Part shown: positions 321 to 61,213 of the stretch, piece by piece | How the letters are laid out: each line of letters begins with the position of its first letter | Numbering within the stretch: the stretch's first letter is position 1 | Sequence record: OP557969.1 | Direction: 5' to 3' (one strand) | From: Escherichia phage ph0011 | Length of the DNA: 64,000 nucleotides | Notes under the pieces: generated by a model | Databases searched by the model: none | What the model saw: the letters and a program-made list of their open reading frames with translations, nothing else | Told to the model about the DNA's origin: nothing | Made by a program: the position numbers and the translations under genes

Positions 321-731
321 ATGAGTATAGATTTACACAATGAACTACAATATTTTTTTGATTTGGATATATCACGTTTGAACAGACATGTCAATCATAT
401 ATCCAGAACTATATGGTGGTCTGATGAGGCTGATGAACCAAGGATTCAGATTTGTGATAATTTGTCAGTTTTAAGATTGTATGTTCTTGATACCGAAATG
501 AATATTATGATAACATACGTACCACCCACAAACAAACTTCTAATCAACACACTAAACCCAGATACAGTACTGAAAATTTTTGATTTGGATACGATACAGT
601 CAAGCGAAACACTATTCCAACGTTCATTGGTTGATGATCTAGGGGGTATTTCTTTTGACGATATATTAAAATTGAAGAAGATGTATAATGAATTATTAGA
701 GATTAAAAATACCGTTCTAATGGGGATTTAA
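321..731 (+). CDS. EExFFQxST motif family protein
   Basis: ORF 136 aa; motif SETLFQRSLVDDLGGISFDDI. Confidence 0.55.
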   Translation: MSIDLHNELQYFFDLDISRLNRHVNHISRTIWWSDEADEPRIQICDNLSVLRLYVLDTEMNIMITYVPPTNKLLINTLNPDTVLKIFDLDTIQSSETLFQRSLVDDLGGISFDDILKLKKMYNELLEIKNTVLMGI

Positions 732-1138: not shown

Positions 1139-1516
1139 ATGACTACTACCATATATAATATTTTAGGTAACTTGAATAAAAACATAGATAATGATTTTGT
1201 TATAGTTGAAAACACTAAAAATATAATTCATCTACCATTGGGTACACCAGATAGGTTAATTTTTAACATATACGCTAACACACTGACATACATACACGAT
1301 GGTATGGTTATCGTTGTGCTTGATATTAAAGAAAATACAATACGATATGCATATGACTTTAACGTTTATTGGTCAAGAACTCATAGTATTGATATTGAGG
1401 AAGATGAACTTTTTCAATTATCGTTAATTGAGAAAAATGTAATAGGAGTTACCGAGATTGGTATTGTTAAAAAAGCTTTGGAATATGCAAATAAAAAAAT
1501 AAATGGCGAACTATGA
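1139..1516 (+). CDS. EExFFQxST motif family protein
   Basis: ORF 125 aa; motif EDELFQLSLIEKN; ATGA overlap with next gene. Confidence 0.5.
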   Translation: MTTTIYNILGNLNKNIDNDFVIVENTKNIIHLPLGTPDRLIFNIYANTLTYIHDGMVIVVLDIKENTIRYAYDFNVYWSRTHSIDIEEDELFQLSLIEKNVIGVTEIGIVKKALEYANKKINGEL

Positions 1517-1977
1517 TGAACATTGAGGAAATAAAAAATCATTTTGAAATTGCATTGTCTTGTGATTTTGATAGTTGTTATGTTACTGAACCAGAAGATA
1601 TAATTAGAATTTCCACATCGTTTTCAGAAGAATACAATATACTCATTGAGAAATCATATGACAGAACCGAACTCTCATTTTACAATAAGGATTTACGAAC
1701 AACATCATTTATATTATTATATAACACAACATCGGATATAATAGAGATTATAACAAGTAAAACAGGTAAAACAAGTAAAGATGTACATTATGAGACTATA
1801 CCAAATGTAAGTTATTGTTCAACAGAAGAAGGATACTTCCAGGAATCACTTATTAAAAATTTATCAGTTAGCTATTCTGATTTAAGCATTATAGTCAATT
1901 ATGTGGAAAAGTTAAATGATTTCGTTCTATCGATGTTTGATATCACTGAGCAAAAACCAAAGGAAATCAAATGTTAA
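1513..1977 (+). CDS. EExFFQxST motif family protein
   Basis: ORF 154 aa; motif EEGYFQESLIKNL. Confidence 0.55.
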   Translation: MMNIEEIKNHFEIALSCDFDSCYVTEPEDIIRISTSFSEEYNILIEKSYDRTELSFYNKDLRTTSFILLYNTTSDIIEIITSKTGKTSKDVHYETIPNVSYCSTEEGYFQESLIKNLSVSYSDLSIIVNYVEKLNDFVLSMFDITEQKPKEIKC

Positions 1978-2426
1978 ATCCTGGACATTTTTTTCATTTA
2001 CTGGACATTACACCTATACCCGATTTGATCAGCGAGACTAATCATTATCGTGATATTGGAATTGTATCAATGGAATATGATTCACCTGACTTTAAATGTT
2101 ACGTAACATACGATCAGGTGGCTTATGAGTCAGAGCCTGAGATTAAAAAACCATCATATATTTTTGTGTTCATATATAATGATTATAGTGGTGATGTACT
2201 GAATGATGTTCATATTGACACATTTGAAATATGTGGTAATATTATATCAGATGATTCAGCATCCACATTTGATTTGGAATTAAACAGTACTGAAGAGTCA
2301 CTTTTTCAGTTGAGTACTATATGTGATACTATATTAACTCTAGATGACATTGAGAAATTTAAAGAACAGCTTGACGCAGTTCGTGAGATGTTCTATAATC
2401 ATTATCCAGAAGTAGAGTTCAATTAA
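1971..2426 (+). CDS. EExFFQxST motif family protein
   Basis: ORF 151 aa; motif EESLFQLSTICDTILTLDDIEKF. Confidence 0.55.
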   Translation: MLNPGHFFHLLDITPIPDLISETNHYRDIGIVSMEYDSPDFKCYVTYDQVAYESEPEIKKPSYIFVFIYNDYSGDVLNDVHIDTFEICGNIISDDSASTFDLELNSTEESLFQLSTICDTILTLDDIEKFKEQLDAVREMFYNHYPEVEFN

Positions 2427-2440
2427 CTAAAGGTAATAAA

Positions 2441-2701
2441 ATGACAAAAGTAGTTCGTAAACGCCACATGATGAATATGGATGAATTTCGTACATTTGAC
2501 AAATATCGTACTATGTTTCGTATGCTGTCACAGGGTCGCCCAATCGTCATTGTAACAGAGAATTACATGTCACCTGAGATTATGTTTGGTAATTACGAAA
2601 AGGTCTTCATGTTGTACGTGAAGCGTGGATTGCTTACAATCAAGACATTAGCTGAAGCAACTGATGATGATATGGATGGAGATAATACCTTTACCATGTG
2701 A
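2441..2701 (+). CDS. hypothetical protein
   Basis: ORF 86 aa in + strand gene train. Confidence 0.4.
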   Translation: MTKVVRKRHMMNMDEFRTFDKYRTMFRMLSQGRPIVIVTENYMSPEIMFGNYEKVFMLYVKRGLLTIKTLAEATDDDMDGDNTFTM

Positions 2702-2740
2702 GGAAATATATGTCTGAAAAACCAAAAGAACCTTTAGATC

Positions 2741-3031
2741 GTGATGATGATTTTTATGACGAACGATATGGAGATGATAATGAGTAAAAATAGTGCGGTG
2801 CTTAAAAAGATTTTAAAGGAAATTGATGGTGAATTTAATGTCACAGAAGAAGAATATCAGCATTGGAAGAAAGATTTCGAACAACTAACCGAGTATGATA
2901 AAGTGTTCAATATGATTGGCGTAATTAGCCAGTACTTACTTGGTGGAGGACGTGCAAGTGCTTCAATTCTGGCATCTGCAATCATCTGCACATCACGATG
3001 GTGTGATGAAAAAAGTTTGGAAGATTTCTAA
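2741..3031 (+). CDS. hypothetical protein
   Basis: ORF 96 aa; start uncertain. Confidence 0.35.
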   Translation: MMMIFMTNDMEMIMSKNSAVLKKILKEIDGEFNVTEEEYQHWKKDFEQLTEYDKVFNMIGVISQYLLGGGRASASILASAIICTSRWCDEKSLEDF

Positions 3032-3083
3032 ATAAGATGCTATAATATATCAGAGTACCTTAACAATATAAAAAGGATTTTAT

Positions 3084-4964
3084 ATGAAACCTATCCGAGT
3101 ACTATCTCTTTTTAATGGAATGAGTGTAGGATACATGGCATTAAAAGATGCTGGTATCCCTGTTGAAAAATATTATTCATCCGAAATTGACAAATTTGCT
3201 ATAGCTGAATCCCAAGCTAACTTCCCCGATATAATCCAATTGGGTGATGTAACTAAGTGGAGAGAATGGGATATTGAATGGGACAAGATAGATCTACTGA
3301 TGGGTGGTTTTCCATGCTTCCCAGCAGGAACTATGATAATGACAAATAAAGGTCATAAAGATATAAAAGATATAAAAATTGGTGATATGGTTCTTACACA
3401 CACTGGACAGTACCAAAAAGTATTGAGTACTGGTGTTAAAAAGGCTCCCACTCGTATTATTACGGGTCAAGGTCACCTTCCAATTGAATGTACCGATAAT
3501 CATCCATTTTGGAGTAGGGAACGTCTAGCCAATAAATGGAATAATCAACGCCGAAGATATGATTCTGTGTTTTCTGAACCGCAATGGGTAAATGCTATAG
3601 ATCTTACTAAACAAAGTTATATTTGTAATGTTAAAAATATTACACATAATACTGTAAGTGATAAAGATGAAAAATATTGGTATTTTGTTGGTCGTTTTAT
3701 GGGTGATGGATGTGCTAGTGTATCTAATAACAAATACAGTATTACTATTGTAGATTCATTAGATAAAGTTGATGAATTGAAAAAATGCTTTGATGATTTT
3801 GGATACAAATACACATTAGCTATTAAAGATAATCATGTAAGATGTGATATATATAGCAAAAAGCTTTATGATGAATTAATATGTATTGGGCATAAATCAC
3901 AAAACAAATGTTTACCACCTGAAATATTCAATGAAACTATCAATAACAAAGAAGCATTTATTAAAGGATACATGGATGCAGATGGTTGTGAGGATAAACA
4001 CAATAAAAAATACAAATTTACCACCACAAGTTATAAAATAGTTCTTGGTATGCAACAGTTAATCTTAGATACTTATCAAAGTCATTGTACTATTAGCCAA
4101 ACTGTTCCAAAAACAAAAAAATATATAAAAAATAAGTTGGTTAATCAGCTTCCGTATTGGAATGTTCATTTTAGCTATAATAAAATTAAAAGAGATGATG
4201 TAATATATGATGAAATTTATATATGGAATCGTGGTGTAAAAAGTAATGTACCAACCGGAGAATGGAAAACCGTTTACAATATTGAAGTTGCAGTAGATAA
4301 CACATATACAGCGAACAATATTGTAGTTCATAACTGCCAAGCGTGGTCAGTTGCAGGTAAACAGGGTGGAATAAATGATCCTCGTGGTATGTTATTCCAT
4401 ACAATGGTTGATATTTACCAGCACATAAAAAGTCTCAATCCAGACTTGAAAGTACTGTTCGAGAATGTTAAAATGAAAGAAGATTTCAAGCAATACATTA
4501 ATAGTGTTCTTGAGATGACACCAGTACTGATAAATTCCCAGCATTATACGCCTCACTTCAGGCAGCGATATTACTGGTACAGTACTGATAAACTTTTTAT
4601 ACCACCTGCATTATCCAATGCACCTAAACTTCAAGATATTATTGAAGATGGTTGGTACACTGACAGAACCGCTTCGTACTGTATAGATGCTAACTATTTT
4701 AAGGGTGGTGATTGTAACCAGTACTTTAATAAATCAAGAAGACAAATTGTTTTCAAAGAACCTGATATCGATAGGGATTTCCTTCTTGAACATGGTAAGC
4801 GAAATGTGGACTATCGTCATTTAACAGTACAAGAGTGTTGCATGTTGCAAGGAATTGATGTAAACTACTTCAAAGTTAGTAGTTCAACACAAGCATACAA
4901 AATGCTTGGGAATGGATGGACTATGCCAGTTATATCACACTTACTACGAGATATATTCTTTTGA
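3084..4964 (+). CDS. DNA C5-cytosine methyltransferase, intein-containing precursor
   Basis: 626-aa ORF. Exteins carry C5-MTase motifs: LSLFNGMSVGYMAL (motif I-like), GGFP|CQAWSVAGK (motif IV Pro-Cys split by the insert), DPRGMLF, VLFENV (motif VI), LTVQECCMLQGI, MLGNGWTMPV. Spliced product predicted ~286 aa. Confidence 0.85.
   Translation: MKPIRVLSLFNGMSVGYMALKDAGIPVEKYYSSEIDKFAIAESQANFPDIIQLGDVTKWREWDIEWDKIDLLMGGFPCFPAGTMIMTNKGHKDIKDIKIGDMVLTHTGQYQKVLSTGVKKAPTRIITGQGHLPIECTDNHPFWSRERLANKWNNQRRRYDSVFSEPQWVNAIDLTKQSYICNVKNITHNTVSDKDEKYWYFVGRFMGDGCASVSNNKYSITIVDSLDKVDELKKCFDDFGYKYTLAIKDNHVRCDIYSKKLYDELICIGHKSQNKCLPPEIFNETINNKEAFIKGYMDADGCEDKHNKKYKFTTTSYKIVLGMQQLILDTYQSHCTISQTVPKTKKYIKNKLVNQLPYWNVHFSYNKIKRDDVIYDEIYIWNRGVKSNVPTGEWKTVYNIEVAVDNTYTANNIVVHNCQAWSVAGKQGGINDPRGMLFHTMVDIYQHIKSLNPDLKVLFENVKMKEDFKQYINSVLEMTPVLINSQHYTPHFRQRYYWYSTDKLFIPPALSNAPKLQDIIEDGWYTDRTASYCIDANYFKGGDCNQYFNKSRRQIVFKEPDIDRDFLLEHGKRNVDYRHLTVQECCMLQGIDVNYFKVSSSTQAYKMLGNGWTMPVISHLLRDIFF
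3315..4334 (+). mobile_element. intein with LAGLIDADG homing endonuclease domain inside the C5-MTase gene
   Basis: Starts Cys (CFPAGTMIMT, block A), block B TDNHPF, two LAGLIDADG motifs (FVGRFMGDGC, FIKGYMDADGCE), ends IVVHN followed by +1 Cys of CQAWS; in frame, 340 aa. Confidence 0.8.
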
Positions 4965-4966
4965 AC

Positions 4967-5446
4967 ATGAACAACTACCCCACTTATACAGAACGTGCAA
5001 TGGAATTTAAACGTCAGTTAGCCAAGGATGAATTAGAATTTAATTTGTATTATCCTAATATTGGTGATGAGGTATTGTATAGTTCTCATGCTAAGAATGG
5101 AACTTTACTTCATTCCGGTAAAGGTATTGTTGTGGATATGATTAGTACGTTTAAAGGAAAACTTAATGTAATGTACAAAGTACAAGATTCAAGTACTAAG
5201 TGTATTCATGAAGTGATGCATAATATACCTACATACCCAAAAGATTTTGTTGAGCTAATATCTCGAAGGGAGAAACCTATGTTCTATTGTGGTTACGACA
5301 AATTAACCAAACAAATTATTCCTAATACTATGGGAAAATTTAAAAGTGATGTAAAATCTGAACTTAATAAGAAATTAGGTTCTTCATGGGAAACTGAAAA
5401 CGAGTTTATCGAAATTCGTTTAATTGAAGTTACTATTCTTGATTAA
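4967..5446 (+). CDS. hypothetical protein
   Basis: ORF; start set at first ATG after MTase stop (MNNYPTYTERAMEF). Confidence 0.45.
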   Translation: MNNYPTYTERAMEFKRQLAKDELEFNLYYPNIGDEVLYSSHAKNGTLLHSGKGIVVDMISTFKGKLNVMYKVQDSSTKCIHEVMHNIPTYPKDFVELISRREKPMFYCGYDKLTKQIIPNTMGKFKSDVKSELNKKLGSSWETENEFIEIRLIEVTILD

Positions 5447-5447
5447 T

Positions 5448-5480
5448 TATAAATCCACGCATTGCGTGGATTTTTTCATA
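5448..5480 (+). terminator. rho-independent terminator hairpin
   Basis: AAATCCACGCATTGCGTGGATTTTTT. Confidence 0.6.
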
Positions 5481-5489
5481 GGTGCATAT

Positions 5490-6005
5490 ATGACAGTTCC
5501 GTATGTTAAAATTATTAACAATATCCTTGATTTATGGGAAGATGTTATTACCGGTAAAAAGAATCCAATACCAGTACACGTACTAACTGGAAGACTACAA
5601 TTCAGAATGTCTAACAAAACTGAAACGTTTAATAATCATGATATTTGTATTACATTAAAAACACCTGTTAGTATTGTAATTAAAAAAAATAAAGATGATG
5701 AATTGTCATTATCTATTGGTCGTGATAAAATTATTTTAAGTAATTTGTCTGAAGAAGAATTCTTTCAAAGAAGTACTATCATCGACATGAAAGATTTCAC
5801 ATATGAATCATTAGTAGAACTCAATACACGTTTTGATGATATTCAGGAACGATTGCGACCAATACTCCGTAGAGAAGAAGAAGCCTGGATTGAAAGTATG
5901 AAGAAGATGCAAGAAATGTTAAAAGAAAATATTAACAATCTTGGTAAAACAACAATGGAAATTGGTAAAACTTTAAAACTCAACTTTTCAAAGGATCGTA
6001 AATGA
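5490..6005 (+). CDS. EExFFQxST motif family protein
   Basis: start moved to MTVPYVKII after terminator; motif EEEFFQRSTIIDM. Confidence 0.5.
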   Translation: MTVPYVKIINNILDLWEDVITGKKNPIPVHVLTGRLQFRMSNKTETFNNHDICITLKTPVSIVIKKNKDDELSLSIGRDKIILSNLSEEEFFQRSTIIDMKDFTYESLVELNTRFDDIQERLRPILRREEEAWIESMKKMQEMLKENINNLGKTTMEIGKTLKLNFSKDRK

Positions 6006-6454
6006 AAATCGATGAACTGATTTATATTTTAGGTAACTTGCACAAAATATTGTTACATCGCAACGAGATGAATAAACTAGGGTATAATATAACTAATTTA
6101 AATGAAACATCATTTAAATATAACTCAATCACTGGTGGAAATTATAATATTGTGTATTGTCATGAAACTGACCCTGACTGCTATCAACTTACGTTATACT
6201 TTTATCCAACAAACCCTACCATTGTTCAAGACATATCATCAATATCACTTGACCCAGATGGTGAAATGAGTATAGAATATAGCTATGATTCTAAAAAAGA
6301 ATGTTACGTTGAAGATATGAAAAATATGTTTAACGATGCATATGTGTTCCAGCTAAGTACTGTACATGATGTTGGAAGTACTAATGGGCAATTTTGGAAT
6401 ACATGCTATTATCATATGATTGGAATTTGTAAATTACTAAAAGGCGATGATTAA
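6002..6454 (+). CDS. EExFFQxST motif family protein (divergent)
   Basis: ORF 150 aa; motif DAYVFQLSTVHDVG. Confidence 0.5.
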   Translation: MKIDELIYILGNLHKILLHRNEMNKLGYNITNLNETSFKYNSITGGNYNIVYCHETDPDCYQLTLYFYPTNPTIVQDISSISLDPDGEMSIEYSYDSKKECYVEDMKNMFNDAYVFQLSTVHDVGSTNGQFWNTCYYHMIGICKLLKGDD

Positions 6455-6837
6455 TGAAATACAGCATTGAAGTACATTACACTACTGGTGATACTGAAAA
6501 TCAATATAACATAGTTAAGACCATTGATGTTCAATGGGATACTAAAGAGGAAGCAGTTGCTGCTTTACAGTGTCTAAAAGAGCATTGGGTGTTTTATATG
6601 AAGCAAGATAATTGCCATACAAAAGAACGCGAAACTATCGTTAAAAATGCTAAACAAAAAGAGTGGTTTGACCCAATTTCACCAGAATATTCATTTTTGG
6701 TTAAAGTTGGTGGCGTGACAGTACCCTTACGAACACCGTGGAACGGCTACTTTGAAACTCTTCATAATGCACGAGTTGTCGCTGTTGACAATCCTGAACA
6801 AATCGATTTTGATTCATTGGACTGGAAAAAATTATGA
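6454..6837 (+). CDS. hypothetical protein
   Basis: ORF 127 aa, ATGA-coupled. Confidence 0.45.
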   Translation: MKYSIEVHYTTGDTENQYNIVKTIDVQWDTKEEAVAALQCLKEHWVFYMKQDNCHTKERETIVKNAKQKEWFDPISPEYSFLVKVGGVTVPLRTPWNGYFETLHNARVVAVDNPEQIDFDSLDWKKL

Positions 6838-7277
6838 CAGTACTGCACCAATTGAAGAAGGTTAAGCATCCAGTTGTATATGAGGACTGGAAACGTCAGA
6901 AGCTGATGGGTGACTTTTATTACCCAAAATCTAAAGTTCTTGCGAATTCAAGATGTACATATATCAAACATAACGATAAAGATACAGTATTTGTTGAAAT
7001 GGGGTTCAATCCATCAAATACAATGTTCAGTACTAACCAAACATTTTACAAATTTCATATCCAAAAAGATGTATTTTCTATTAAAATTATAAAACATTTA
7101 GTTGAAGATCTGGTATACAGTGAAGAAAGAGTTCCTTTATCATTAGTGGATATTCCTTATAATAATTTAGAGGAAATGTACTTCCAACAGTTGACAGTAC
7201 AAGAAAACTTTGGTATGATAGGACTTCAAGAGTTAGAGATGATTAAGCAAATTCGTGATATCTACTTTAAGGGGTAA
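6834..7277 (+). CDS. EExFFQxST motif family protein (divergent)
   Basis: ORF 147 aa; motif EEMYFQQLTVQENFGMIGLQELE. Confidence 0.5.
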   Translation: MTVLHQLKKVKHPVVYEDWKRQKLMGDFYYPKSKVLANSRCTYIKHNDKDTVFVEMGFNPSNTMFSTNQTFYKFHIQKDVFSIKIIKHLVEDLVYSEERVPLSLVDIPYNNLEEMYFQQLTVQENFGMIGLQELEMIKQIRDIYFKG

Positions 7278-15389: not shown

Positions 15390-15506
<117 letters not shown>

Positions 15507-15511
15507 AAAAG

Positions 15512-15585
15512 ACGGGGTATAGCACAATTGGATAGTGCAAGAGAATTCTAATCTCTAGGTTGGGGGTTCAAGTCCCTCTACCTCG
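15512..15585 (+). tRNA. tRNA-Arg (anticodon TCT)
   Basis: acceptor CGGGGTA/TACCTCG (one G-U), D stem GCAC/GTGC, anticodon stem AGAGA/TCTCT loop ATTCTAA, T arm GGGGG-TTCAAGT-CCCTC. Confidence 0.7.
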
Positions 15586-15610
15586 GCCTACTTTAATTAA
15601 AGGTTAAACC

Positions 15611-15775
15611 ATGACGCATGAAGAATGGATGAATGACATTAATTTTAGATATGCAGGTATCGGTAACTGGAGAAAGTATCATTGGGAAATCATATCAGAC
15701 CCAGCAGAATACGATAAACTTATGAATCATGAAGTGTATCCGTGGTTCTTTATTGAAATAATGGTACGATTATGA
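15611..15775 (+). CDS. MTHxEW small-protein family member
   Basis: MTHEEWMNDINFRYAGIGNWRKYHWEI...; ATGA overlap. Confidence 0.45.
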   Translation: MTHEEWMNDINFRYAGIGNWRKYHWEIISDPAEYDKLMNHEVYPWFFIEIMVRL

Positions 15776-15932
15776 CACATGAAGAATGGATGAATGACAT
15801 TAATTTTAGATATTCGGGTATCGGTAAATGGCTAAAGTATCATTGGGAATTCATTTCAGAGCCACATCTGTATGATAAACTTATCAACGATTCTGCATAT
15901 AAAATGTACTTAATTGAACTACTGGTACGAAT

Positions 15933-15936
<4 letters not shown>
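15772..15936 (+). CDS. MTHxEW small-protein family member
   Basis: MTHEEWMNDINFRYSGIGKWLKYHWEF... Confidence 0.45.
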
Positions 15937-16105
<169 letters not shown>

Positions 16106-16108
16106 AAG

Positions 16109-16553
<445 letters not shown>

Positions 16554-16581
16554 GTATCTTAATAACAGAAGGTATATTGAA

Positions 16582-16821
16582 ATGAGTAAGTATTTTGTGA
16601 GTTATAGTTATAATGTATCACGAAAGATTCCACGTGGTGACGGAATGGGATGGTCTTATGATGCATATACTTTAAATGAGTCATGTATCATCGAATTAAA
16701 AGAAAAAGACCTTGACATTTTAAAAATCAAACAATATATTCTTGATGTTGAATTGGCACATCGTACTGATATCTATCCAGATGTAAATAACATCAGCATC
16801 TTAGTACTAACCAAAGTATAA
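16582..16821 (+). CDS. hypothetical protein
   Basis: start MSKYFVSY after AAGG. Confidence 0.45.
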   Translation: MSKYFVSYSYNVSRKIPRGDGMGWSYDAYTLNESCIIELKEKDLDILKIKQYILDVELAHRTDIYPDVNNISILVLTKV

Positions 16822-16827
16822 GATAAA

Positions 16828-16861
<34 letters not shown>

Positions 16862-17215
16862 GAATTCCACAATCAGACGTATATGGTGTAAGTTACGTCG
16901 ATGCAATCCAGAACAAGATCTCTGGTACTCTAGGAAGTGGTTAATGTTAACCTAGACGGGTTTGATAATTGGACGATAGGCAATTATTACTTGACTAGCA
17001 GGTTTAAACTAGAGGTGACTATCCTTCACCAAACTGGAAAACCGGATGGACTTTTATTTAAAAGGGTAAGGCGTGGAAATATGTTTACAGTAGTTGCTTT
17101 TAGTAGCCTGTACGCCCCACGTCAAGGTAGCCGAAAGGCAAGTTAAAACGGGTGGTTATAAAGCTGAATTAACAGCGGCGTTTAAAAGCGTCACCATCCA
17201 TTTTTTTTAATTAAA
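16862..17215 (+). ncRNA. candidate structured stable RNA(s), unclassified
   Basis: ~350 nt directly downstream of an early promoter, ending in a T-run, with no RBS-associated ORF and locally higher GC; sits in the tRNA cluster. Confidence 0.35.
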
Positions 17216-17224
17216 GTTGGTGAT

Positions 17225-17863
<639 letters not shown>

Positions 17864-17882
17864 CTTTTTAATTTAAAAGTAC

Positions 17883-17910
17883 TTTACTGTAGTGTTTAGT
17901 ACCGTATAAT
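17883..17910 (+). promoter_or_regulatory. candidate early promoter
   Basis: TTTACT-N16-TATAAT. Confidence 0.45.
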
Positions 17911-17936
17911 GTAAACAAAAGGATAAAATAAAACTC

Positions 17937-18461
<525 letters not shown>

Positions 18462-18483
18462 TTAAAAAATCAGTACTTTATTA

Positions 18484-18697
<214 letters not shown>

Positions 18698-18720
18698 TCA
18701 TTGCACTCTTCTCTTGTAAT

Positions 18721-18868
<148 letters not shown>

Positions 18869-18889
18869 TTCACATGATATAGGGTACAC

Positions 18890-19147
<258 letters not shown>

Positions 19148-19163
19148 ATAAAAAGAACGAAAA

Positions 19164-19205
<42 letters not shown>

Positions 19206-19215
19206 GATTCCCGAT

Positions 19216-19342
<127 letters not shown>

Positions 19343-19361
19343 AGAGGTACTTCGAGTATGC

Positions 19362-19417
<56 letters not shown>

Positions 19418-19436
19418 AACTACTTTTTAATTGACG

Positions 19437-19487
<51 letters not shown>

Positions 19488-19504
19488 TACAACCGACAAT
19501 GACT

Positions 19505-19571
<67 letters not shown>

Positions 19572-19746
19572 GAAGAAACTGCTAAACAGCTTGAAGAACT
19601 TTGTAGTGCTGCACCGATGCCGACTCTTGGCTTAATCAAGTTGATGCGTCGAAATAAGAAAAATTTAAAATAATACAGTAAGATGGCCTCCCCTCCATAT
19701 CATGAGAGTATAGAGACTTGTTGGTTATCTTACTTTTAAACAAACT

Positions 19747-19820
19747 GCCTCAATAGCAAAATTGGTAATGCACACGTTTTGTAAGCGTGAGATTTTTCCG
19801 TTCGAGTCGGAATTGGGGCA
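19747..19820 (+). tRNA. candidate tRNA-Thr (anticodon TGT)
   Basis: acceptor GCCTCAA/TTGGGGC (one U-G), anticodon stem CACGT/GCGTG loop TTTGTAA, T arm TTCCG-TTCGAGT-CGGAA; 6-nt variable loop is atypical. Confidence 0.5.
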
Positions 19821-19837
19821 CAAAATAAAGGCACACT

Positions 19838-21687: not shown

Positions 21688-22092
21688 ATGTTGAAAATTC
21701 CACAACAGGCATTATCTATACTAATTGAAAATGGTGTAATATTTTCTGAAGGATGTAGTTCATTCTATACATGTGATGTGGACCAGTACACATTTGAATA
21801 CCGTTCATTTAAAAATACATTGAGTGTTTCATGTGAAGCTTCTGACAACATTGTACTTGTCGTTTCTTTCTATGGTGTACCAAAATTCTTCATTGATATA
21901 TATTATGATTCTTTTAAGATACAAACATACGACCATTTTCTTGGTGAAGTGCTCTTGCAAATGCCAATTGAACATGTTACTATAAATGAAGATATGTTCT
22001 TTCAGCTATCTACTGTATATGATATGTGTGGTTTGACATTTGACAACATTAATGGTATTTTTGAAATTGCCAGAACCCTACGAGGAAGATGA
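21688..22092 (+). CDS. EExFFQxST motif family protein
   Basis: motif EDMFFQLSTVYDMCGLTFDNI. Confidence 0.55.
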   Translation: MLKIPQQALSILIENGVIFSEGCSSFYTCDVDQYTFEYRSFKNTLSVSCEASDNIVLVVSFYGVPKFFIDIYYDSFKIQTYDHFLGEVLLQMPIEHVTINEDMFFQLSTVYDMCGLTFDNINGIFEIARTLRGR

Positions 22093-31632: not shown

Positions 31633-32421
31633 ATGTGCACTATAGATGAATTAATTAGACGGAATTCAAAATACTACAAACCATCAGAAATTGTAGGCAA
31701 CATTACTAAATCAGAGTTCGGACCAAATACACGAAAACTCATTCATGTAATGTTACGTGATGGCTTTAAATGTGATTGTTGTGGTGAATCCAATGTGGTA
31801 TTCACTTTACATAAGCACAGTACTAAAGAACGTTATAAATTCAGACCTTATGTACTTAAAGGGAAACGCCTTGTACGCATGACGTTAGACCATAATGTAC
31901 TGGACTGTCTTCAGGGTGGTAATGACAAAGAAAACATGACTGCACTGTGTGAGGATTGCAATGCATTACGCCAGCATAAATTTGCTGAGTACAGTGAGTT
32001 TAAGTTCTGGTATCATAACGCAGATCGTTCCATTGAACCTGACGTTAACTACTGCTTTATTGAGTACATTAAGAATGCAAAAGATACATACATTCTTAAA
32101 TCAATGTCACCTATTACAGTGTTTCCTGAGAATCTATTCACTACATTAAAGAATAGTTTTATGGTAGGTGATATTGATGCATTCAAGTATTTTGACAAAG
32201 GTGCAAAACATTTTGAAGTTCAATGTCTTAGTACTGCACTATGTGAACTTATTAAAATTTACATAAAAGATTATTTGGGTATTGACAATGTACGCGTACC
32301 AGAGTATACTTTTTCTATTGATTTCGATTGTGAATCAATCAAAGAGTTTGGGATTCTTTTCAATAAACAAATAGAACTTGCAATTCAAAACGAAATCAAG
32401 TACTATAATACTAACATTTAA
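31633..32421 (+). CDS. HNH endonuclease domain protein
   Basis: CDCCGES...HKH...LDHNVLDCLQGGNDKENMTALCEDCNALRQH. Confidence 0.6.
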   Translation: MCTIDELIRRNSKYYKPSEIVGNITKSEFGPNTRKLIHVMLRDGFKCDCCGESNVVFTLHKHSTKERYKFRPYVLKGKRLVRMTLDHNVLDCLQGGNDKENMTALCEDCNALRQHKFAEYSEFKFWYHNADRSIEPDVNYCFIEYIKNAKDTYILKSMSPITVFPENLFTTLKNSFMVGDIDAFKYFDKGAKHFEVQCLSTALCELIKIYIKDYLGIDNVRVPEYTFSIDFDCESIKEFGILFNKQIELAIQNEIKYYNTNI

Positions 32422-34609: not shown

Positions 34610-34807
34610 ATGTTTACTTTATATCTCGCAGTGGTTCTTACTAATGGTGAAATCACTCGTACTATTGGTGAAGGTGTATATAAAACGCCTGAGCAATGTT
34701 ACTCTGCTACACATTGGCCTCGTGATAGTGATGATACTCGTACCGAATTCAAATGCATGAAAGTAAAAGGTGATTTTGTTAACCTTAAAGTTATTGAGGC
34801 TAAATGA
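34610..34807 (+). CDS. hypothetical protein
   Basis: ORF 65 aa. Confidence 0.4.
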   Translation: MFTLYLAVVLTNGEITRTIGEGVYKTPEQCYSATHWPRDSDDTRTEFKCMKVKGDFVNLKVIEAK

Positions 34808-35322
34808 TGAATATTAATGAGTTGTTAATATTATTGTTTAATCGTGGAAATGATGTAAGACGTACTATATATCAAGACAAAATACACATTGAAACTGATA
34901 AATGCTATGGTAAAACAACTCATGAGATTTTAAAACCAAACGGTAAGCGATATGCCGACGTATGTTTTCATGAACGTAGTGATGGTAGTGACATAATCAG
35001 TACTGATATTGTGTTTTATGCTAGGTCATCGGCAGAATCTTATGAAATCGAACTTGTATATTGCCCTAGTTCAAAAGCACACAATAAGCGTCAGATATTA
35101 TATGATGTTTATTCACCACCAGGTGTAGCTGAACATTTTGTTATCGATTACAGTACTGAAGAAAGTGTGTTTCAACAGAGTTTGATTCATAACTTCCAGT
35201 TGAACGATCCAAATGTACCAAAGATGTTCAATCTACTCGATGCAATTGATGTTGATTTTGAATTTGTTATGTGCATCAGAACTTCTTTAATCGATGAATT
35301 TATGGAACTACTTAATATATGA
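34804..35322 (+). CDS. EExFFQxS motif family protein
   Basis: motif EESVFQQSLIHNF. Confidence 0.5.
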   Translation: MMNINELLILLFNRGNDVRRTIYQDKIHIETDKCYGKTTHEILKPNGKRYADVCFHERSDGSDIISTDIVFYARSSAESYEIELVYCPSSKAHNKRQILYDVYSPPGVAEHFVIDYSTEESVFQQSLIHNFQLNDPNVPKMFNLLDAIDVDFEFVMCIRTSLIDEFMELLNI

Positions 35323-39896: not shown

Positions 39897-40469
39897 ATGA
39901 ATCGTAAAGGTCGTTTTAAGGTATCAAAGAAGAACAAAAGTTCTAGATTTAAGCCTATAGTTTTAACCGTTAAAGCCAAAGCGGAATTAACTGCACTTAG
40001 TAAAAAGATTATTTCATCTAAGATCAAAATATCATATATAAATTCAGTAAAATATCATAATGTCAAACCACGAGATCAACTTATTTCACTCATATTTAAA
40101 CGTAATGATTTTGAGATATCAGTGGATGATTATAGAGCCTATAATGCTGGTTTCATTAATGTTATTTGTACTACAGAACTAACTGAATTAGAACATTTGT
40201 CATGTATAGTAAATCTCGATAAAGGTGTAGTGAAATACCACTTTGTACATTTTACTAATATTAATGATGGAAAGGGTGTACAATCCAGAACTATAGTACC
40301 TACATGTGATGTGACTAAATTATCAAAGCTCAATGACGAAGAATATTTTCAAGAAAGTACTGTAACTGAATATATAGATGAAATTATAGCAACTTACAAA
40401 GAATGTATATGGGTTTTAAATGCAATGAAGCCTAAATTATGTTTGATGAATATTGTACGTGATTTATGA
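39897..40469 (+). CDS. EExFFQxST motif family protein
   Basis: motif DEEYFQESTVTEYIDE. Confidence 0.55.
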   Translation: MNRKGRFKVSKKNKSSRFKPIVLTVKAKAELTALSKKIISSKIKISYINSVKYHNVKPRDQLISLIFKRNDFEISVDDYRAYNAGFINVICTTELTELEHLSCIVNLDKGVVKYHFVHFTNINDGKGVQSRTIVPTCDVTKLSKLNDEEYFQESTVTEYIDEIIATYKECIWVLNAMKPKLCLMNIVRDL

Positions 40470-48776: not shown

Positions 48777-49982
48777 ATGATCTTCGAAACTGAAAAAACA
48801 TTACTTGAAACTTACACTTTGGATAATCTAGTTAAACTTAACCTTGAACGACCAGATATCCAACGCAATTGGCAATGGAAAAATAATAACCAAAACAATC
48901 TTATTATTTCTATTCTAAAGAATTCTCCAATTGGTCAATTTTTGGTATGGAATGAAACTAGCTCGAATACTATGTACATCACTGATGGTCGTCATCGCTA
49001 TACAGTAATTTCAAACTTCATGAACAATAAATTTCCAGTCACTGTTAGAACTGAAGATGGGACTAAGGATTATTATTATGGTTCTGATGATCCAGTAGAA
49101 GAAGAAAACATTTCACTGAAACTTGGTGGAAAACGTAAAACATGGGATTTTTTATCTAAAGAAGAGCGTGATGCGTTTCGTGCAAAGGAAGTATCAGTAA
49201 CATTCGTTCATACCGACGATGCTGAAAAGATTTCAGATATGTTTATTGCAATTAATACTGCATCATCTAATCTATGTAAAGTGGATTTGTTAGTATGTAA
49301 GCACCACACAAATACATATATGAAACGTATTGATAAGCTATTTTCAATTGAGTTTGGTAAAGATGAACCCATGGCATCATTAGTTAGTGATTTTTACCGT
49401 GCAATCGGTCATTGTTGTGTTAATGGTAATCATGAGAAACACTTATCAAAGCTTAAAGCTAACCCTAAAGTACAGAAGCGTGAATTTTTTGAAATGTTCT
49501 TTATGGTCAAAGCGTTCGCGAAATTATGTGCTAGTGCACTAGATGGTAAGCTAAACTCATACCGTATGCCAAAGATGAACCAACAAATTGAAGAAGCAAT
49601 TATTAGTACTGAATCTCTTAGTGAGAAACATGCTGATGCTGATTTTGTTCAGTTTGTTAATGCAGTTCGTGAGATGAATTTAGTATCACCTGTAAAATCT
49701 GCACAAAAATTTCAATTTATCCATGAAGATATGAAGAATACCTTTAATAAGAGACTCTTTTGTATTTTGATGGGATTGTTTTATGCTTATGGTACAAGAT
49801 TGCCATTACATTTTCGTGATGTATGGGGTGACATTTATAATGAAATGTCAGAAAAAAGTTCAGAACTACCTACTAATGGAACCGATAGTCCTTCCGCAAT
49901 TTTAGCTGGCATTGAAATGATTGAACCATACTTTAGTTCAGCATTCAATAATATTCCATTGAGTGCTTACGTGGGAAAGTGA
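48777..49982 (+). CDS. DUF262-like (ParB/Srx-fold, GmrSD N-domain type) protein
   Basis: RPDIQRNWQW...LIISILKNSPIGQFLVW...YITDGRHRYTVISNF matches DUF262 pattern (P-x-FQR...W, DGQQR-like). Confidence 0.6.
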   Translation: MIFETEKTLLETYTLDNLVKLNLERPDIQRNWQWKNNNQNNLIISILKNSPIGQFLVWNETSSNTMYITDGRHRYTVISNFMNNKFPVTVRTEDGTKDYYYGSDDPVEEENISLKLGGKRKTWDFLSKEERDAFRAKEVSVTFVHTDDAEKISDMFIAINTASSNLCKVDLLVCKHHTNTYMKRIDKLFSIEFGKDEPMASLVSDFYRAIGHCCVNGNHEKHLSKLKANPKVQKREFFEMFFMVKAFAKLCASALDGKLNSYRMPKMNQQIEEAIISTESLSEKHADADFVQFVNAVREMNLVSPVKSAQKFQFIHEDMKNTFNKRLFCILMGLFYAYGTRLPLHFRDVWGDIYNEMSEKSSELPTNGTDSPSAILAGIEMIEPYFSSAFNNIPLSAYVGK

Positions 49983-50191
49983 AAAAACGTGGTGTACTAA
50001 ATACACTACAAAAACAATATCTTTTGAAAAGATATTCTTTGTGTTATCTTTGTGGACAGAAGATATCGGATTCAGATATACTACATTTTGACCATGTTCA
50101 ATCATTAAAAGATGGTGGTAGTAATGAATTAAGTAATATACGACCAACGCACTCCATTTGTAATTTACGTAAAGGTGCTAAGAGTATGTAA
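49979..50191 (+). CDS. small HNH nuclease
   Basis: CYLCGQK...HFDHVQSLKDGGSNELSNIRPTHSICNLRKG; ATGA-coupled to DUF262 gene. Confidence 0.65.
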   Translation: MKKRGVLNTLQKQYLLKRYSLCYLCGQKISDSDILHFDHVQSLKDGGSNELSNIRPTHSICNLRKGAKSM

Positions 50192-50240
50192 AGCTAATAC
50201 TCCCCAAAGATGGGGAGTATATATAATTAAAGGGATTTAT

Positions 50241-57213: not shown

Positions 57214-57284
57214 ATTTCCTCCTTTATCCATTGTACTGTATTTAATCCAAATTAGAAAAGCCAGTATCAAGTACTGGCATTGTA

Positions 57285-58634: not shown

Positions 58635-58705
58635 ACTTCCTCCTTATTCATCATACTATATTTAATACAAATAAGAAAAGCCAGTATCAAGTACTGGCTT
58701 TTACA

Positions 58706-59896: not shown

Positions 59897-59966
59897 ATTC
59901 CCTCCTTATTCATTATACTATATTTAATACAAATAATAAAAGCCAGTATCAAGTACTGGCCTATAT

Positions 59967-61136: not shown

Positions 61137-61213
61137 AATTAAATCTCCAAAATTAAAATAATTATATAGTATTTACAAAAAATACTAGTACATATTTCAG
61201 TACTGGCCTATTA

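What the first reader, a model, noticed from the sequence alone, without database searches (positions are those of the whole stretch)
3084..4964. C5-cytosine methyltransferase in a T4-type genome context
T4 itself encodes Dam (N6-adenine) and replaces cytosine with glucosyl-hmC; here an early-region gene encodes a Dcm/SPbeta-like C5-MTase. This suggests the phage uses 5-methylcytosine, perhaps with relaxed specificity, to evade host restriction, or that the enzyme is an acquired orphan MTase.
Basis: inference. Interest (0 to 1): 0.45.

Follow-up and report, generated by a model that had tools for sequence, protein, structure and literature searches.

The report
Intein-split cytosine methyltransferase, jumbo phage
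The gene does encode a C5-cytosine DNA methyltransferase, an ordinary conserved gene of the 121Q/RaK2 jumbo coliphages rather than of T4, but here its catalytic motif is split by a mobile self-splicing intein that must excise before the enzyme can work.

Summary
The ORF at 3084-4964 (+, 626 aa) is real. Only 286 of its residues are methyltransferase. Residues 78-417 (window 3315-4334) are a canonical class-1 intein carrying a LAGLIDADG homing endonuclease. It sits between the Pro and the catalytic Cys of motif IV (GGFP|C...HN|CQAWS). Removing it gives a 286-aa enzyme the same length as 121Q gp91, with motif IV restored uninterrupted.

The window is an Asteriusvirus jumbo phage. The ORF is 626/626 identical to WAE77301.1 of Escherichia phage ph0011. 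This group is only a distant relative of T4. The fully annotated relative 121Q has a true thymidylate synthase but no dCMP hydroxymethylase, glucosyltransferase or dCTPase, so ordinary cytosine is available for methylation.

The methyltransferase is conserved and syntenic across the RaK2-like group and is under purifying selection. It has no nuclease neighbour, so it is an old solitary enzyme, not a recent acquisition. It is compact and closest to the DNMT3 catalytic domain, not Dcm- or SPbeta-like.

The intein is sporadic: 4 of about 36 related phage records carry it. It shows homing footprints. It belongs to a large lineage (246 clusters; 119 of the best 120 in C5-MTases) at this same site.

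I found no paper describing such inteins. Methylation, splicing and target sequence are untested. Verdict: ordinary gene; the intein is a new member of a known kind.

The parts
3084..4964 (+). Precursor ORF (626 aa): C5-cytosine DNA methyltransferase interrupted by an intein. It is identical to WAE77301.1 (Escherichia phage ph0011).
3084..3314 (+). N-extein (aa 1-77). It holds motif I (LSLFNGMSVG, SAM binding), the motif II region (SEID) and the first half of motif IV, ending GGFP.
   Evidence: Pfam stretch 4-79. Alignment to DNMT3A motif I and motif IV. omega is 0.016-0.03.
3315..4334 (+). Class-1 intein (340 aa). It has Cys1 (CFPAGT), block B TDNH, blocks F and G (VYNIEVAVDNTYTANNIVVHN), and a nested LAGLIDADG homing endonuclease with two motifs (VGRFMGDG and KGYMDADG, roughly window 3860-4250).
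   Evidence: invariant C1, H63, N340. (intein blocks mostly pLDDT 71-94). (PI-SceI, TliVMA and PI-PfuI inteins; I-DmoI). The insert is precisely absent from 121Q and others.
4335..4964 (+). C-extein (aa 418-626). The +1 Cys418 is the catalytic Cys of motif IV (CQAWS). It also holds motif VI (LFENV), motif VIII (HFRQRYYW), a short and poorly modelled TRD (about aa 507-551), and motif X (LGNGWTMPV).
   Evidence: (invariant C418, E460, N461; nearly invariant R493, R495).
3017..3046 (+). Candidate sigma-70-type promoter (TTGGAA-18-TATAAT with an extended-10 TG), 38 nt upstream of the start codon. An AAGGA Shine-Dalgarno-like sequence lies at about 3073-3077.
   Evidence: This is a consensus match only; the count does not exceed shuffles.
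2250..4968 (.). Tract of near-identity with phage UE-S1. Identity is at least 93% from about 2250 and 99.4-99.5% across the intein and C-extein. The breakpoint is sharp at the 3' end of the gene. I read it as a recombination or homing co-conversion tract.

Best explanation
The ORF encodes the precursor of a solitary phage C5-cytosine DNA methyltransferase. A 340-aa class-1 intein with a LAGLIDADG homing endonuclease is inserted between Pro77 and the catalytic cysteine of motif IV.

After translation, the intein's Cys1 and the downstream Cys418 carry out protein splicing. This step is inferred from conserved residues. Splicing releases two products.

1. A 286-aa methyltransferase with motif IV restored (GGFPCQAWS). 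Like its uninterrupted orthologue 121Q gp91, it is expected to use SAM to methylate C5 of cytosines at a short, still unknown target in replicated phage DNA. That would shield the DNA from cytosine-sensitive host restriction enzymes. This lineage has ordinary cytosine, so the substrate exists.

2. A free intein endonuclease. During co-infection it is expected to cut intein-free copies of the same gene in related phages and be copied in by recombinational repair (homing), dragging flanking extein sequence with it.

The unspliced precursor should be inactive, because the catalytic loop is split at the nucleophile. Shown here: the anatomy, the exact boundaries, conservation, selection, the patchy distribution and the recombination footprints. 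Inferred: splicing, endonuclease activity, methylation and the anti-restriction role.
For: Anatomy. Pfam finds DNA_methylase, Hint_2 and LAGLIDADG_3. The boundaries are GGFP|CFPAGT...VVHN|CQAWS. 121Q, WPEC3, Turkey5, EJP2 and GAP32 read GGFPCQAWS without interruption, and 121Q gp91 is 286 aa like the predicted spliced product.

Conserved residues. Across 24 homologues the invariant positions include C78, H140, N417, C418, E460 and N461.

Structure. The AF2 model has mean pLDDT 79.8. It matches PI-SceI at 3e-18 and the TliVMA intein with target-normalised TM 0.67. The two MTase halves together match the DNMT3A catalytic domain with target-normalised TM about 0.70. By sequence the spliced enzyme hits DNMT3A/B at 2e-24, M.HhaI at 5e-17 and M.HaeIII at 3e-16.

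Functional constraint. Extein omega is 0.03-0.19. The HE domain between TH47 and JNE01 has omega 0.077.

Mobility.
- The intein is in 4 of about 36 Asteriusvirus records (UE-S1, TH47, JNE01, A4).
- Window and UE-S1 are 99.4-99.5% identical over the intein and C-extein, against 87.6% just downstream, with a sharp break at about 4965-4969.
- TH47 versus JNE01: intein dS is 0.18-0.39 while extein dS is 1.35-1.49.
- The proximal C-extein travels with the intein (window versus JNE01 dS 0.34, against 1.64 for the N-extein).
- The homing site is nearly intact in intein-free alleles.

Not an intron. The frame is continuous and there is no Rfam intron hit.

Substrate. 121Q lacks gp42, beta-gt and gp56 homologues and has a bona fide ThyA (343 bits, cutoff 327; the T4 gp42 control scores 49).

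Solitary. The neighbours have no nuclease domains.
Against: No experimental data exist for splicing, endonuclease cleavage or 5mC in this phage group. I found none in the papers I could search.

The target sequence is unknown, and the TRD is modelled at low confidence (pLDDT below 50 at 507-551).

For the window's own intein variant, endonuclease activity is supported only by intact LAGLIDADG motifs and the UE-S1 tract. Window and UE-S1 are too similar for a selection test. Against variant 2, HE omega is 0.43-0.67 with saturated dS.

These genomes are mosaic everywhere, so the UE-S1 tract could be ordinary recombination rather than homing.

Some hosts of this phage group are E. coli K-12. From my own knowledge, K-12 carries McrBC and McrA, which attack some 5mC-containing DNA. 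Extensive 5mC could therefore be a liability, which makes the simple anti-restriction story incomplete.

Absence of the hmC pathway was tested in 121Q, not in the 284 kb of this phage that lie outside the window.
Confidence: 0.8

Rival explanations
1. First reader's reading. A T4-type phage replaced the glucosyl-hmC strategy with 5-methylcytosine, using a Dcm- or SPbeta-like, possibly relaxed-specificity or recently acquired orphan MTase.
For: It is a C5-MTase and it is solitary. The wider lineage keeps distant T4-like core genes. No hmC genes are found in the relatives (PMC5259590).
Against: The lineage is Asteriusvirus, RaK2-like, outside the Tevenvirinae. I found no sign that it ever had an hmC pathway to replace. 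The enzyme fails the Dcm subfamily model (25 bits, cutoff 710). It is a compact 286-aa enzyme that aligns end to end with the DNMT3B catalytic domain, unlike the large multispecific SPbeta-type enzymes (the latter point is from my own knowledge). The gene is conserved at the same position across the Asteriusvirus records, with matching MTase genes in the wider RaK2-like group, so it was not recently acquired.
Confidence: 0.15
2. The interrupted gene is a dead allele. The intein no longer splices, so this phage lacks a working C5-MTase and carries the insert as junk.
For: Splicing is untested. The intein sits at the catalytic nucleophile, so any splicing defect abolishes the enzyme. In Mannheimia phage 587AP2 a same-site intein is followed by a frameshifted C-extein, showing that such alleles can decay.
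Against: All splicing residues are present: Cys1, block B T..H, penultimate His, terminal Asn and +1 Cys. The 1,878-nt frame is intact in five phage lineages. Exteins of intein-bearing alleles remain under strong purifying selection (window versus TH47: N-extein omega 0.016, proximal C-extein omega 0.04).
Confidence: 0.07
3. The intein is now only vertically inherited. Its endonuclease is inactive, and the patchy distribution and identity tracts reflect ordinary phage mosaic recombination and loss, not homing.
For: The identity profile is mosaic along the whole 8 kb. Mini-inteins without an endonuclease occur at the same site in other MTases (18 of 124). One close relative (P0001) has a shortened, degenerate HE region.
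Against: Both LAGLIDADG motifs keep their acidic residues. The HE domain is under purifying selection between TH47 and JNE01 (omega 0.077). Intein dS is several-fold lower than extein dS for the same phage pair. The proximal C-extein allele is shared among intein-bearing phages whose flanks are only about 55% identical.
Confidence: 0.15
4. The enzyme methylates RNA (DNMT2-like tRNA C38 methylation) rather than phage DNA.
For: One relative is annotated 'DNMT2' (Turkey5). The phage carries its own tRNA cluster. DNMT2 structures are hit at 1e-8.
Against: Hits to DNA enzymes are far stronger: DNMT3A/B 2e-24, M.HhaI 5e-17, M.HaeIII 3e-16. PADLOC's best matches are Type II and orphan DNA MTase models.
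Confidence: 0.03

Closest known systems
121Q gp91 (YP_009101685.1), PBECO4, G17, RaK2, GAP32 and CBB 'DNA-cytosine methyltransferase' (orthologues in RaK2-like jumbo phages)
   Same: Same gene at the same genomic position in the Asteriusvirus records, with the same 286-aa length after intein removal and the same motifs. Nucleotide identity of the exteins to 121Q-type alleles is about 85-86%.
   Different: Those alleles are uninterrupted. Here the gene carries a 1,020-bp intein at motif IV. The proximal C-extein is of the EJP2/GAP32 type (NDPRGMLFHTM), not the 121Q type (NDIRGQLFLVM).
UE-S1 UES1_076 (UTS53451.1), ph0011 WAE77301.1 and E. coli-assembly WP_170998953.1
   Same: Same intein-containing allele. 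ph0011 is 626/626 identical. The cluster holding UE-S1 and WP_170998953.1 differs by about 3 aa.
   Different: Nothing of substance. These records call the protein simply 'DNA cytosine methyltransferase'. The UE-S1 and ph0011 papers do not mention an intein.
Canonical class-1 inteins with a LAGLIDADG homing endonuclease (PI-SceI of yeast VMA1, TliVMA/PhoVMA, PI-PfuI)
   Same: Cys1, block B TxxH, terminal HN and a +1 Cys. The HINT fold has a nested two-motif LAGLIDADG domain. Foldseek gives E=3e-18 to 2e-10. Insertion is in a catalytic motif of a nucleic-acid enzyme.
   Different: The host protein is different (a C5-MTase), and sequence identity is only 13-16%. Splicing and cleavage have not been tested here.
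Inteins in actinophage and mycobacteriophage DNA methylases (Kelley 2016, PMC5050341; Gosselin 2023, PMC9957025)
   Same: Mobile LAGLIDADG inteins in solitary phage methylases, with patchy distribution and within-gene recombination. tblastn links this intein to the F-cluster mycobacteriophage 'DNA methylase' inteins at about 24% identity.
   Different: Kelley et al. classify their mycobacteriophage methylases as N6_N4_Mtase-family enzymes, which is a different fold order and a different insertion site. Here the host is a C5-MTase and the +1 residue is the enzyme's own catalytic cysteine.
Same-site inteins in other C5-MTases (P1-like RCS47 Dmt, Mannheimia phage 587AP2, many metagenomic proteins)
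   Same: The insertion point is identical, xP|C...HN|CQ. There are 246 clusters at E<=1e-10, and 119 of the best 120 carry PF00145.
   Different: Intein identity is only 23-35%. The host MTases are very divergent. Some are mini-inteins lacking the endonuclease.
Mammalian DNMT3A/DNMT3B catalytic domain
   Same: Best solved-structure match by sequence (E=2e-24). The N-terminal KPIRVLSLF stretch is identical, the size is the same (about 285 aa), and the alignment to DNMT3B runs end to end. Target-normalised TM is about 0.70.
   Different: BLAST-level identity is modest. The phage enzyme has no PWWP or ADD regulatory domains. Specificity is unknown, and nothing here shows CpG targeting.

Membership tests
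C5-cytosine DNA methyltransferase (PF00145 / TIGR00675) | Profile match above the curated cutoffs | tested here: met
   PF00145 gives 102.3 bits (cutoff 22) on the precursor. TIGR00675 gives 115.1 bits (cutoff 100.65) on the spliced sequence.
C5-cytosine DNA methyltransferase (PF00145 / TIGR00675) | Motif I (FxGxG, SAM binding), motif IV (PCQ with the catalytic Cys), motif VI (ENV), motif VIII (RxR) and motif X (GNG), in the canonical order | tested here: met
   LFNGMSVG; GGFP|CQ, restored only after intein removal; LFENV; FRQRYYW; LGNGW. These align with the DNMT3A motifs. C418, E460 and N461 are invariant, and R493 and R495 nearly invariant, across 24 homologues.
C5-cytosine DNA methyltransferase (PF00145 / TIGR00675) | Transfers a methyl group to C5 of cytosine in DNA at a defined sequence | not testable with these tools
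   This needs a methylome or an enzyme assay. I found no published data for Asteriusvirus.
E. coli Dcm subfamily | Match to the NCBIfam Dcm subfamily model NF007772 | tested here: not met
   25.4 bits against a cutoff of 710, covering only the C-terminal motif.
Class-1 intein | N-terminal nucleophile (Cys or Ser at position 1) and block B TxxH | tested here: met
   Cys78 (CFPAGT) and T137-D-N-H140. C1 and H63 are invariant and T60 is nearly invariant in the intein alignment.
Class-1 intein | C-terminal His-Asn followed by a +1 Cys, Ser or Thr on the C-extein | tested here: met
   ...NNIVVHN|C418. N417 and C418 are invariant.
Class-1 intein | HINT fold | tested here: met
   Hint_2 scores 34.3 bits (cutoff 28.4). 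The AF2 model matches PI-SceI, TliVMA and PI-PfuI inteins.
Class-1 intein | In-frame insertion that is precisely absent from orthologues, leaving an intact host protein | tested here: met
   The 1,020-bp insert is absent from about 30 Asteriusvirus records. The orthologue examined in full, 121Q gp91, is 286 aa and reads GGFPCQAWS.
Class-1 intein | Autocatalytic protein splicing demonstrated | not testable with these tools
   This needs expression and analysis of the protein products.
LAGLIDADG homing endonuclease (intein-nested) | Two LAGLIDADG motifs with conserved acidic residues in a single chain | tested here: met
   VGRFMGDG and KGYMDADG. LAGLIDADG_3 scores 41.4 bits (cutoff 22.5). I-DmoI is matched with target-normalised TM about 0.63.
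LAGLIDADG homing endonuclease (intein-nested) | Evidence of homing: sporadic distribution, element more similar than its host gene, co-conversion of flanks | tested here: met
   The evidence is indirect, and cleavage itself was not tested.
T4-type (Tevenvirinae) phage with hmC DNA | dCMP hydroxymethylase (gp42), dCTPase (gp56) and glucosyltransferases | tested here: not met
   tblastn of T4 gp42, beta-gt and gp56 against the whole 121Q genome and the window finds only a 1e-4 graze of ThyA. 121Q gp568 is a true thymidylate synthase. The test covers 121Q and this window, not the rest of this phage's genome.
T4-type (Tevenvirinae) phage with hmC DNA | Close homology of core replication and morphogenesis genes to T4 | tested here: not met
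   Identity to T4 gp43, gp41 and UvsX is only 26-31%. The taxonomy is Caudoviricetes; Asteriusvirus. The group is described as distant relatives outside the Tevenvirinae (PMC5259590).

The most novel reading that the evidence does not exclude
The intein belongs to a large and, as far as I could find, undescribed lineage of inteins that target one spot in C5-cytosine methyltransferases: the peptide bond before the catalytic cysteine. That cysteine would serve first as the splicing nucleophile and then as the methyl-transfer nucleophile.

This arrangement could be more than parasitism. Splicing might act as a post-translational gate on phage DNA methylation. One possibility is a time delay. Another is a redox-sensitive Cys1/Cys+1 switch of the kind reported for conditional protein splicing in other inteins. 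In addition, the endonuclease could act as a weapon that cuts the MTase gene of co-infecting relatives and so favours the linked alleles.
Probability: 0.12. Interest if true: 0.6.

Novelty: new member of a known kind. Interest (0 to 1): 0.35.

Why it matters
For the question asked, the result is mostly deflationary. A C5-MTase is not an anomaly in this phage group. The lineage has plain cytosine and has carried this solitary enzyme for a long time.

Three things are still of practical value.

1. Annotation. The ph0011, UE-S1 and RefSeq records call a 626-aa protein 'DNA cytosine methyltransferase'. The A4 record has a shifted start, JNE01 calls it hypothetical, and Mannheimia phage 587AP2 splits a same-site case into three CDS. 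None of these product names mentions an intein.

2. Intein biology. The catalytic motif IV of C5-MTases appears to be a major intein insertion site (246 clusters) that the surveys I could read do not mention. It offers a natural system in which the +1 splice nucleophile is also the enzyme's catalytic nucleophile.

3. Phage biology and therapy. Asteriusvirus phages are being developed as therapeutics. Their methylation status, their sensitivity to McrBC-type defences, and endonuclease-driven marker exclusion in cocktails of related phages all become directly testable.

Tried and rejected
- Group I/II intron instead of an intein. Rejected: the frame is continuous, the intein blocks are canonical, and Rfam finds no intron in 2500-5500. 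The only hit is a sub-threshold Leu_leader match at 5369-5477.
- Recently acquired MTase. Rejected by conservation across RaK2-like phages.
- Dcm-like. Rejected by NF007772.
- hmC pathway in the lineage. Searched the whole 121Q genome with T4 gp42, beta-gt, gp56 and Dam, with gp43, gp41 and UvsX as positive controls. Nothing was found.
- Cognate restriction enzyme next to the gene. Seven neighbouring ORFs were scanned against Pfam and PHROGs. All are of unknown function.
- The idea that the intein-linked C-extein variant (NDPRGMLFHTM) was created by the intein. Rejected because intein-free EJP2 and GAP32 have it too. It is an imported allele type.
- Promoter evidence for 'early' expression. 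Inconclusive.
- Intein DNA in complete E. coli genomes. No match.
- Exact-protein contig look-ups. Nothing on record. Provenance came from the cluster look-up instead.
- Literature searches for a natural intein in a C5-MTase. Five term sets and the Novikova 2016 survey found none. That paper's supplements were not available. InBase-type databases could not be consulted, so 'undescribed' is provisional.
- Predicting the target sequence. Not attempted beyond noting the short TRD, which is modelled at low confidence.
Full report
**1. What is at the coordinates**

Window 3084-4964 holds one uninterrupted + strand ORF of 626 aa. Pfam finds C-5 cytosine DNA methylase (PF00145, E=4.6e-29) in three separate stretches. 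Between them it finds Hint_2 (34.3 bits, cutoff 28.4) and LAGLIDADG_3 (41.4 bits, cutoff 22.5).

The translation reads ...DLLMGGFP|CFPAGTMIMT...YTANNIVVHN|CQAWSVAGKQ.... Residues 78-417 (340 aa; window 3315-4334) therefore have the signature of a class-1 intein:
- Cys1;
- block B T137-D-N-H140;
- terminal His-Asn;
- a +1 Cys.

A two-motif LAGLIDADG endonuclease (VGRFMGDG and KGYMDADG) is nested inside.

Removing the intein leaves 77 + 209 = 286 aa and restores motif IV as GGFPCQAWS. The +1 splice nucleophile, Cys418, is the methyltransferase's own catalytic cysteine.

**2. What genome this is**

The first 12 kb and the 30-55 kb stretch match only Asteriusvirus jumbo coliphages (UE-S1, TH47, 121Q, PBECO4, G17, Sharanji and others). 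Identity is about 86-88%.

The ORF's product is 626/626 identical to WAE77301.1, 'DNA cytosine methyltransferase [Escherichia phage ph0011]'. It differs by three residues from a cluster that includes UE-S1 UTS53451.1 and the RefSeq protein WP_170998953.1, found on contigs of about 345-357 kb in E. coli assemblies. The window therefore most likely comes from ph0011 or a near-identical phage.

One discrepancy remains. The ph0011 paper's table gives 45% GC, while the window is about 33%.

**3. Is the context T4-type?**

Only at a distance.

The RefSeq record of 121Q labels many genes as T4 gp-like. In my own tblastn, T4 gp43, gp41 and UvsX find 121Q homologues at 1e-21 to 1e-22, but with only 26-31% identity.

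The CBB paper states that RaK2-like phages share about 41 homologues with T4, lack several core genes and fall outside the Tevenvirinae. It also reports that CBB has adenine and cytosine methylases but no genes for glucosyl-hmC (PMC5259590).

I tested this directly on 121Q:
- T4 gp42 only grazes the thymidylate synthase gene (1e-4).
- beta-glucosyltransferase, gp56 dCTPase and T4 Dam find nothing.
- 121Q gp568 passes the thymidylate synthase equivalog (342.9 bits, cutoff 327), whereas the T4 gp42 control scores 48.6 bits.

So this lineage should have ordinary cytosine in its DNA, which is the substrate a C5-MTase needs. The supposed paradox in the finding disappears.

This check covers 121Q and the window. 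It does not cover the rest of this phage's genome.

**4. The methyltransferase**

The spliced sequence passes TIGR00675 (115.1 bits, cutoff 100.65). It fails the E. coli Dcm subfamily model (25 bits, cutoff 710).

Its best solved-structure relatives by sequence are:
- the DNMT3A/3B catalytic domains (E=2e-24, with an identical KPIRVLSLF stretch and an end-to-end alignment to DNMT3B);
- M.HhaI (5e-17);
- M.HaeIII (3e-16);
- DNMT2, far behind at 1e-8.

Motifs I, IV, VI, VIII and X are all present. C418, E460 and N461 are invariant, and R493 and R495 nearly invariant, across 24 homologues.

The gene sits at the same position in about 36 Asteriusvirus records. Nucleotide-level matches to annotated MTase genes extend to GAP32, CBB, RaK2, XbC2 and Erwinia jumbo phages. 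Between the window and 121Q the exteins have omega 0.03-0.19. Seven flanking ORFs have no recognisable domain, nuclease or otherwise.

It is therefore an old, conserved, solitary MTase. The region between motifs VIII and IX is short and poorly modelled. A short recognition sequence is plausible, but that is inference only.

**5. The intein**

*Precise absence.* 121Q, WPEC3, Turkey5, EJP2 and GAP32 read GGFPCQAWS without interruption, and 121Q gp91 is 286 aa. About 30 Asteriusvirus records show the exact 1,020-bp gap.

*Presence.* UE-S1 carries the same variant (99.7% aa). TH47, JNE01 and A4 carry a second variant at the same site. In that variant the endonuclease domain is strongly diverged, with 53-54% aa identity overall.

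*Structure.* An AlphaFold2 model of the precursor has mean pLDDT 79.8, with the intein blocks mostly 71-94 and the two junctions below 50. It matches PI-SceI (3e-18), the TliVMA and PhoVMA inteins, PI-PfuI and I-DmoI. The two MTase halves together superpose on the DNMT3A catalytic domain, with target-normalised TM about 0.70.

*Not an intron.* No RNA intron model matches.

**6. Evidence that the intein moves**

a) Window versus UE-S1. There are 6 differences in the 1,020-nt intein (99.4%) and 3 in the 630-nt C-extein (99.5%). None fall in the last 255 nt of the gene. Then 24 differences occur within 60 nt, starting at 4969. The next 500 nt are 87.6% identical, and the far left flank is 63-87%.

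b) TH47 versus JNE01. Intein dS is 0.18-0.39, against extein dS of 1.35-1.49. The endonuclease domain has omega 0.077, which indicates purifying selection.

c) Co-travelling flank. The roughly 150 nt just 3' of the intein are 94% identical between the window and JNE01, although their flanks are about 55% identical. For that pair, dS is 0.34 in the proximal C-extein, 1.64 in the N-extein and 1.29 in the distal C-extein. This allele type (NDPRGMLFHTM) also occurs in intein-free EJP2 and GAP32. It was therefore imported with the intein, not created by it.

d) Two variants in similar backgrounds. The window's left flank is closer to TH47 (about 85-91%) than to UE-S1, yet the window and TH47 carry different intein variants.

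e) Target still available. Intein-free alleles differ from the joined exteins only at synonymous positions within about 20 nt of the insertion point. The target is probably still cleavable.

One caveat applies to all of this. These genomes are mosaic everywhere, so generic recombination contributes as well.

**7. A wider lineage**

A single-sequence search with the intein returned 31 proteins. In 24 of the 26 with both junctions readable, the intein lies at xP|C...N|C(Q/K/T) inside a C5-MTase.

A profile of 14 such inteins returned 246 clusters at E<=1e-10. Of the best 120, 119 carry PF00145. Among all 138 retrieved proteins, 124 have both junctions readable. Of these, 119 end the N-extein in Pro and 107 start the C-extein with Cys followed by Q, T, K or Y. 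Eighteen are mini-inteins.

Named phages have it too. The P1-like RCS47 Dmt reads GGTP|CFTAGH...VVHN|CQAFS. Mannheimia phage 587AP2 has the same site, but its C-extein is frameshifted and the gene is annotated as three CDS. tblastn also links the intein to annotated cytosine methylase or methyltransferase genes in Lactobacillus phage Nyseid, Pseudomonas phage Lana and Erwinia phage pEa_SNUABM_5. I did not read the splice junctions in those three.

The closest inteins outside methylases are in Aeromonas phage PS1 ThyA and Lactococcus phage 949 NrdD, at about 28-30% identity.

**8. Literature**

The UE-S1, Sharanji and ph0011 papers do not mention an intein. UE-S1 simply lists two methyltransferases. 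In RaK2-like phages, inteins had been noted only in the large terminase of RaK2 and K64-1.

Published phage methylase inteins are in actinophages. Kelley et al. classify their mycobacteriophage hosts as N6_N4_Mtase-family enzymes (PMC5050341). The methylase family studied by Gosselin et al. (PMC9957025) is not assigned to a class in the text I searched.

Five term sets and the main text of the Novikova 2016 intein survey turned up no natural intein in a C5-MTase. I could not consult InBase or REBASE, so 'undescribed' is provisional.

**9. Mechanism, and how sure I am**

Shown here: the anatomy, the boundaries, conservation, selection, the distribution and the recombination footprints.

Inferred:
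- The precursor is inactive because the catalytic loop is split at the nucleophile.
- The intein splices, through Cys1 thioester formation, transfer to Cys418, Asn417 cyclisation and an S-to-N shift. This yields a 286-aa MTase.
- That enzyme methylates cytosine C5 at a short motif in phage DNA and protects it from restriction.
- The released endonuclease homes into intein-free alleles during co-infection.

I put about 0.8 on this overall picture, above 0.95 on the anatomy, and about 0.6 on the anti-restriction role specifically.

One open tension concerns the host. Some hosts of this phage group are E. coli K-12. From my own knowledge, K-12 carries McrBC and McrA, which attack some 5mC-containing DNA. 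The motif, or a counter-defence, must accommodate that.

**10. Verdict**

It is wrong on the T4 framing and the recent-acquisition idea, and the Dcm/SPbeta-like label is not supported.

The methyltransferase itself is already known and annotated. The intein is a new member of a known kind, sitting in what appears to be a large, overlooked, site-specific lineage. Interest is modest.

Noticed in passing
window 321-731, 733-1137, 1139-1516, 1513-1977, 1971-2426, 5490-6005, 6002-6454, 6834-7277, 21688-22092, 34804-35322, 39897-40469 (+): At least 11 small ORFs (125-190 aa), many of them flanking the MTase, share a [FYLV][FM]Q.S[TL][IVL] motif about 90-150 residues in. They look like a very divergent paralogous family. 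BLAST links only a few of them. PHROG families exist for those tested, all of unknown function.
   Followed up: partly
window 50175-51077 (+) and 48777-49982 (+): A second DNA methyltransferase. It matches the PADLOC MTase_II model at 7e-34 and has motifs EPCVGTGSF and NPPF, which I read as an N6-adenine, gamma-class enzyme. It has no Pfam or NCBIfam hit. Next to it is a DUF262/GmrSD_N protein with a DGRHR motif (Pfam 1e-17; PADLOC 'NsnA' 2e-15). This could be a phage-borne modification/nuclease pair or an anti-competitor system.
   Followed up: partly
window 15419-19821 (+): A cluster of 7 tRNA genes. It includes a 92-nt tRNA-Ser with the unusual anticodon ACT (18523-18614). The same gene is annotated in 121Q.
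   Followed up: no
window 56068-62335 (-): A tandem array of at least five RCC1-repeat paralogues (373-449 aa) on the opposite strand. The start of the array coincides with a GC-skew sign change at about 56 kb. 121Q has about 15 such genes, annotated 'regulator of chromosome condensation'.
   Followed up: no
window 31633-32421 (+): A free-standing HNH endonuclease (phrog_35175, 6e-183), conserved in 121Q as gp170. It is another mobile-element candidate in the same region.
   Followed up: no
L019 (Mannheimia phage vB_MhS_587AP2, NC_028743) 1264-3100: A C5-MTase with an intein at the same motif IV site is annotated as three separate 'DNA methyltransferase' CDS. The C-extein shifts frame right after ...VVHN|CQS, so it is either a decayed allele or a sequencing or annotation problem.
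   Followed up: partly
L020 (P1-like phage RCS47, NC_042128) 2270-5557: The 1,095-aa Dmt of this P1-like plasmid-prophage carries a same-site intein in its C5-MTase domain (GGTP|CFTAGH...VVHN|CQAFS). tblastn shows the same intein match in two other P1-like records.
   Followed up: partly
spliced product of window 3084-4964: By sequence the phage enzyme is closer to the mammalian DNMT3A/3B catalytic domain (E=2e-24; identical KPIRVLSLF stretch; same roughly 285-aa size) than to M.HhaI or M.HaeIII. Relatives are variously auto-annotated as HaeIII, HpaII, Dcm or DNMT2, which are mutually inconsistent labels.
   Followed up: partly
window as a whole versus PMC9692438: The ORF is identical to a ph0011 protein. 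However, the ph0011 paper's table lists 45% GC, whereas the window averages about 33%. Either the table is wrong or the window is from a near-identical but different phage. No record in the local phage collection exceeded about 88% nucleotide identity.
   Followed up: no
L007 (Escherichia phage CMSTMSU, MH494197) 533-1300: The orthologous MTase is frameshifted and truncated in this 'UNVERIFIED_ORG' record, and it reads CQARS in place of CQAWS. This is probably a matter of sequence quality rather than biology.
   Followed up: no
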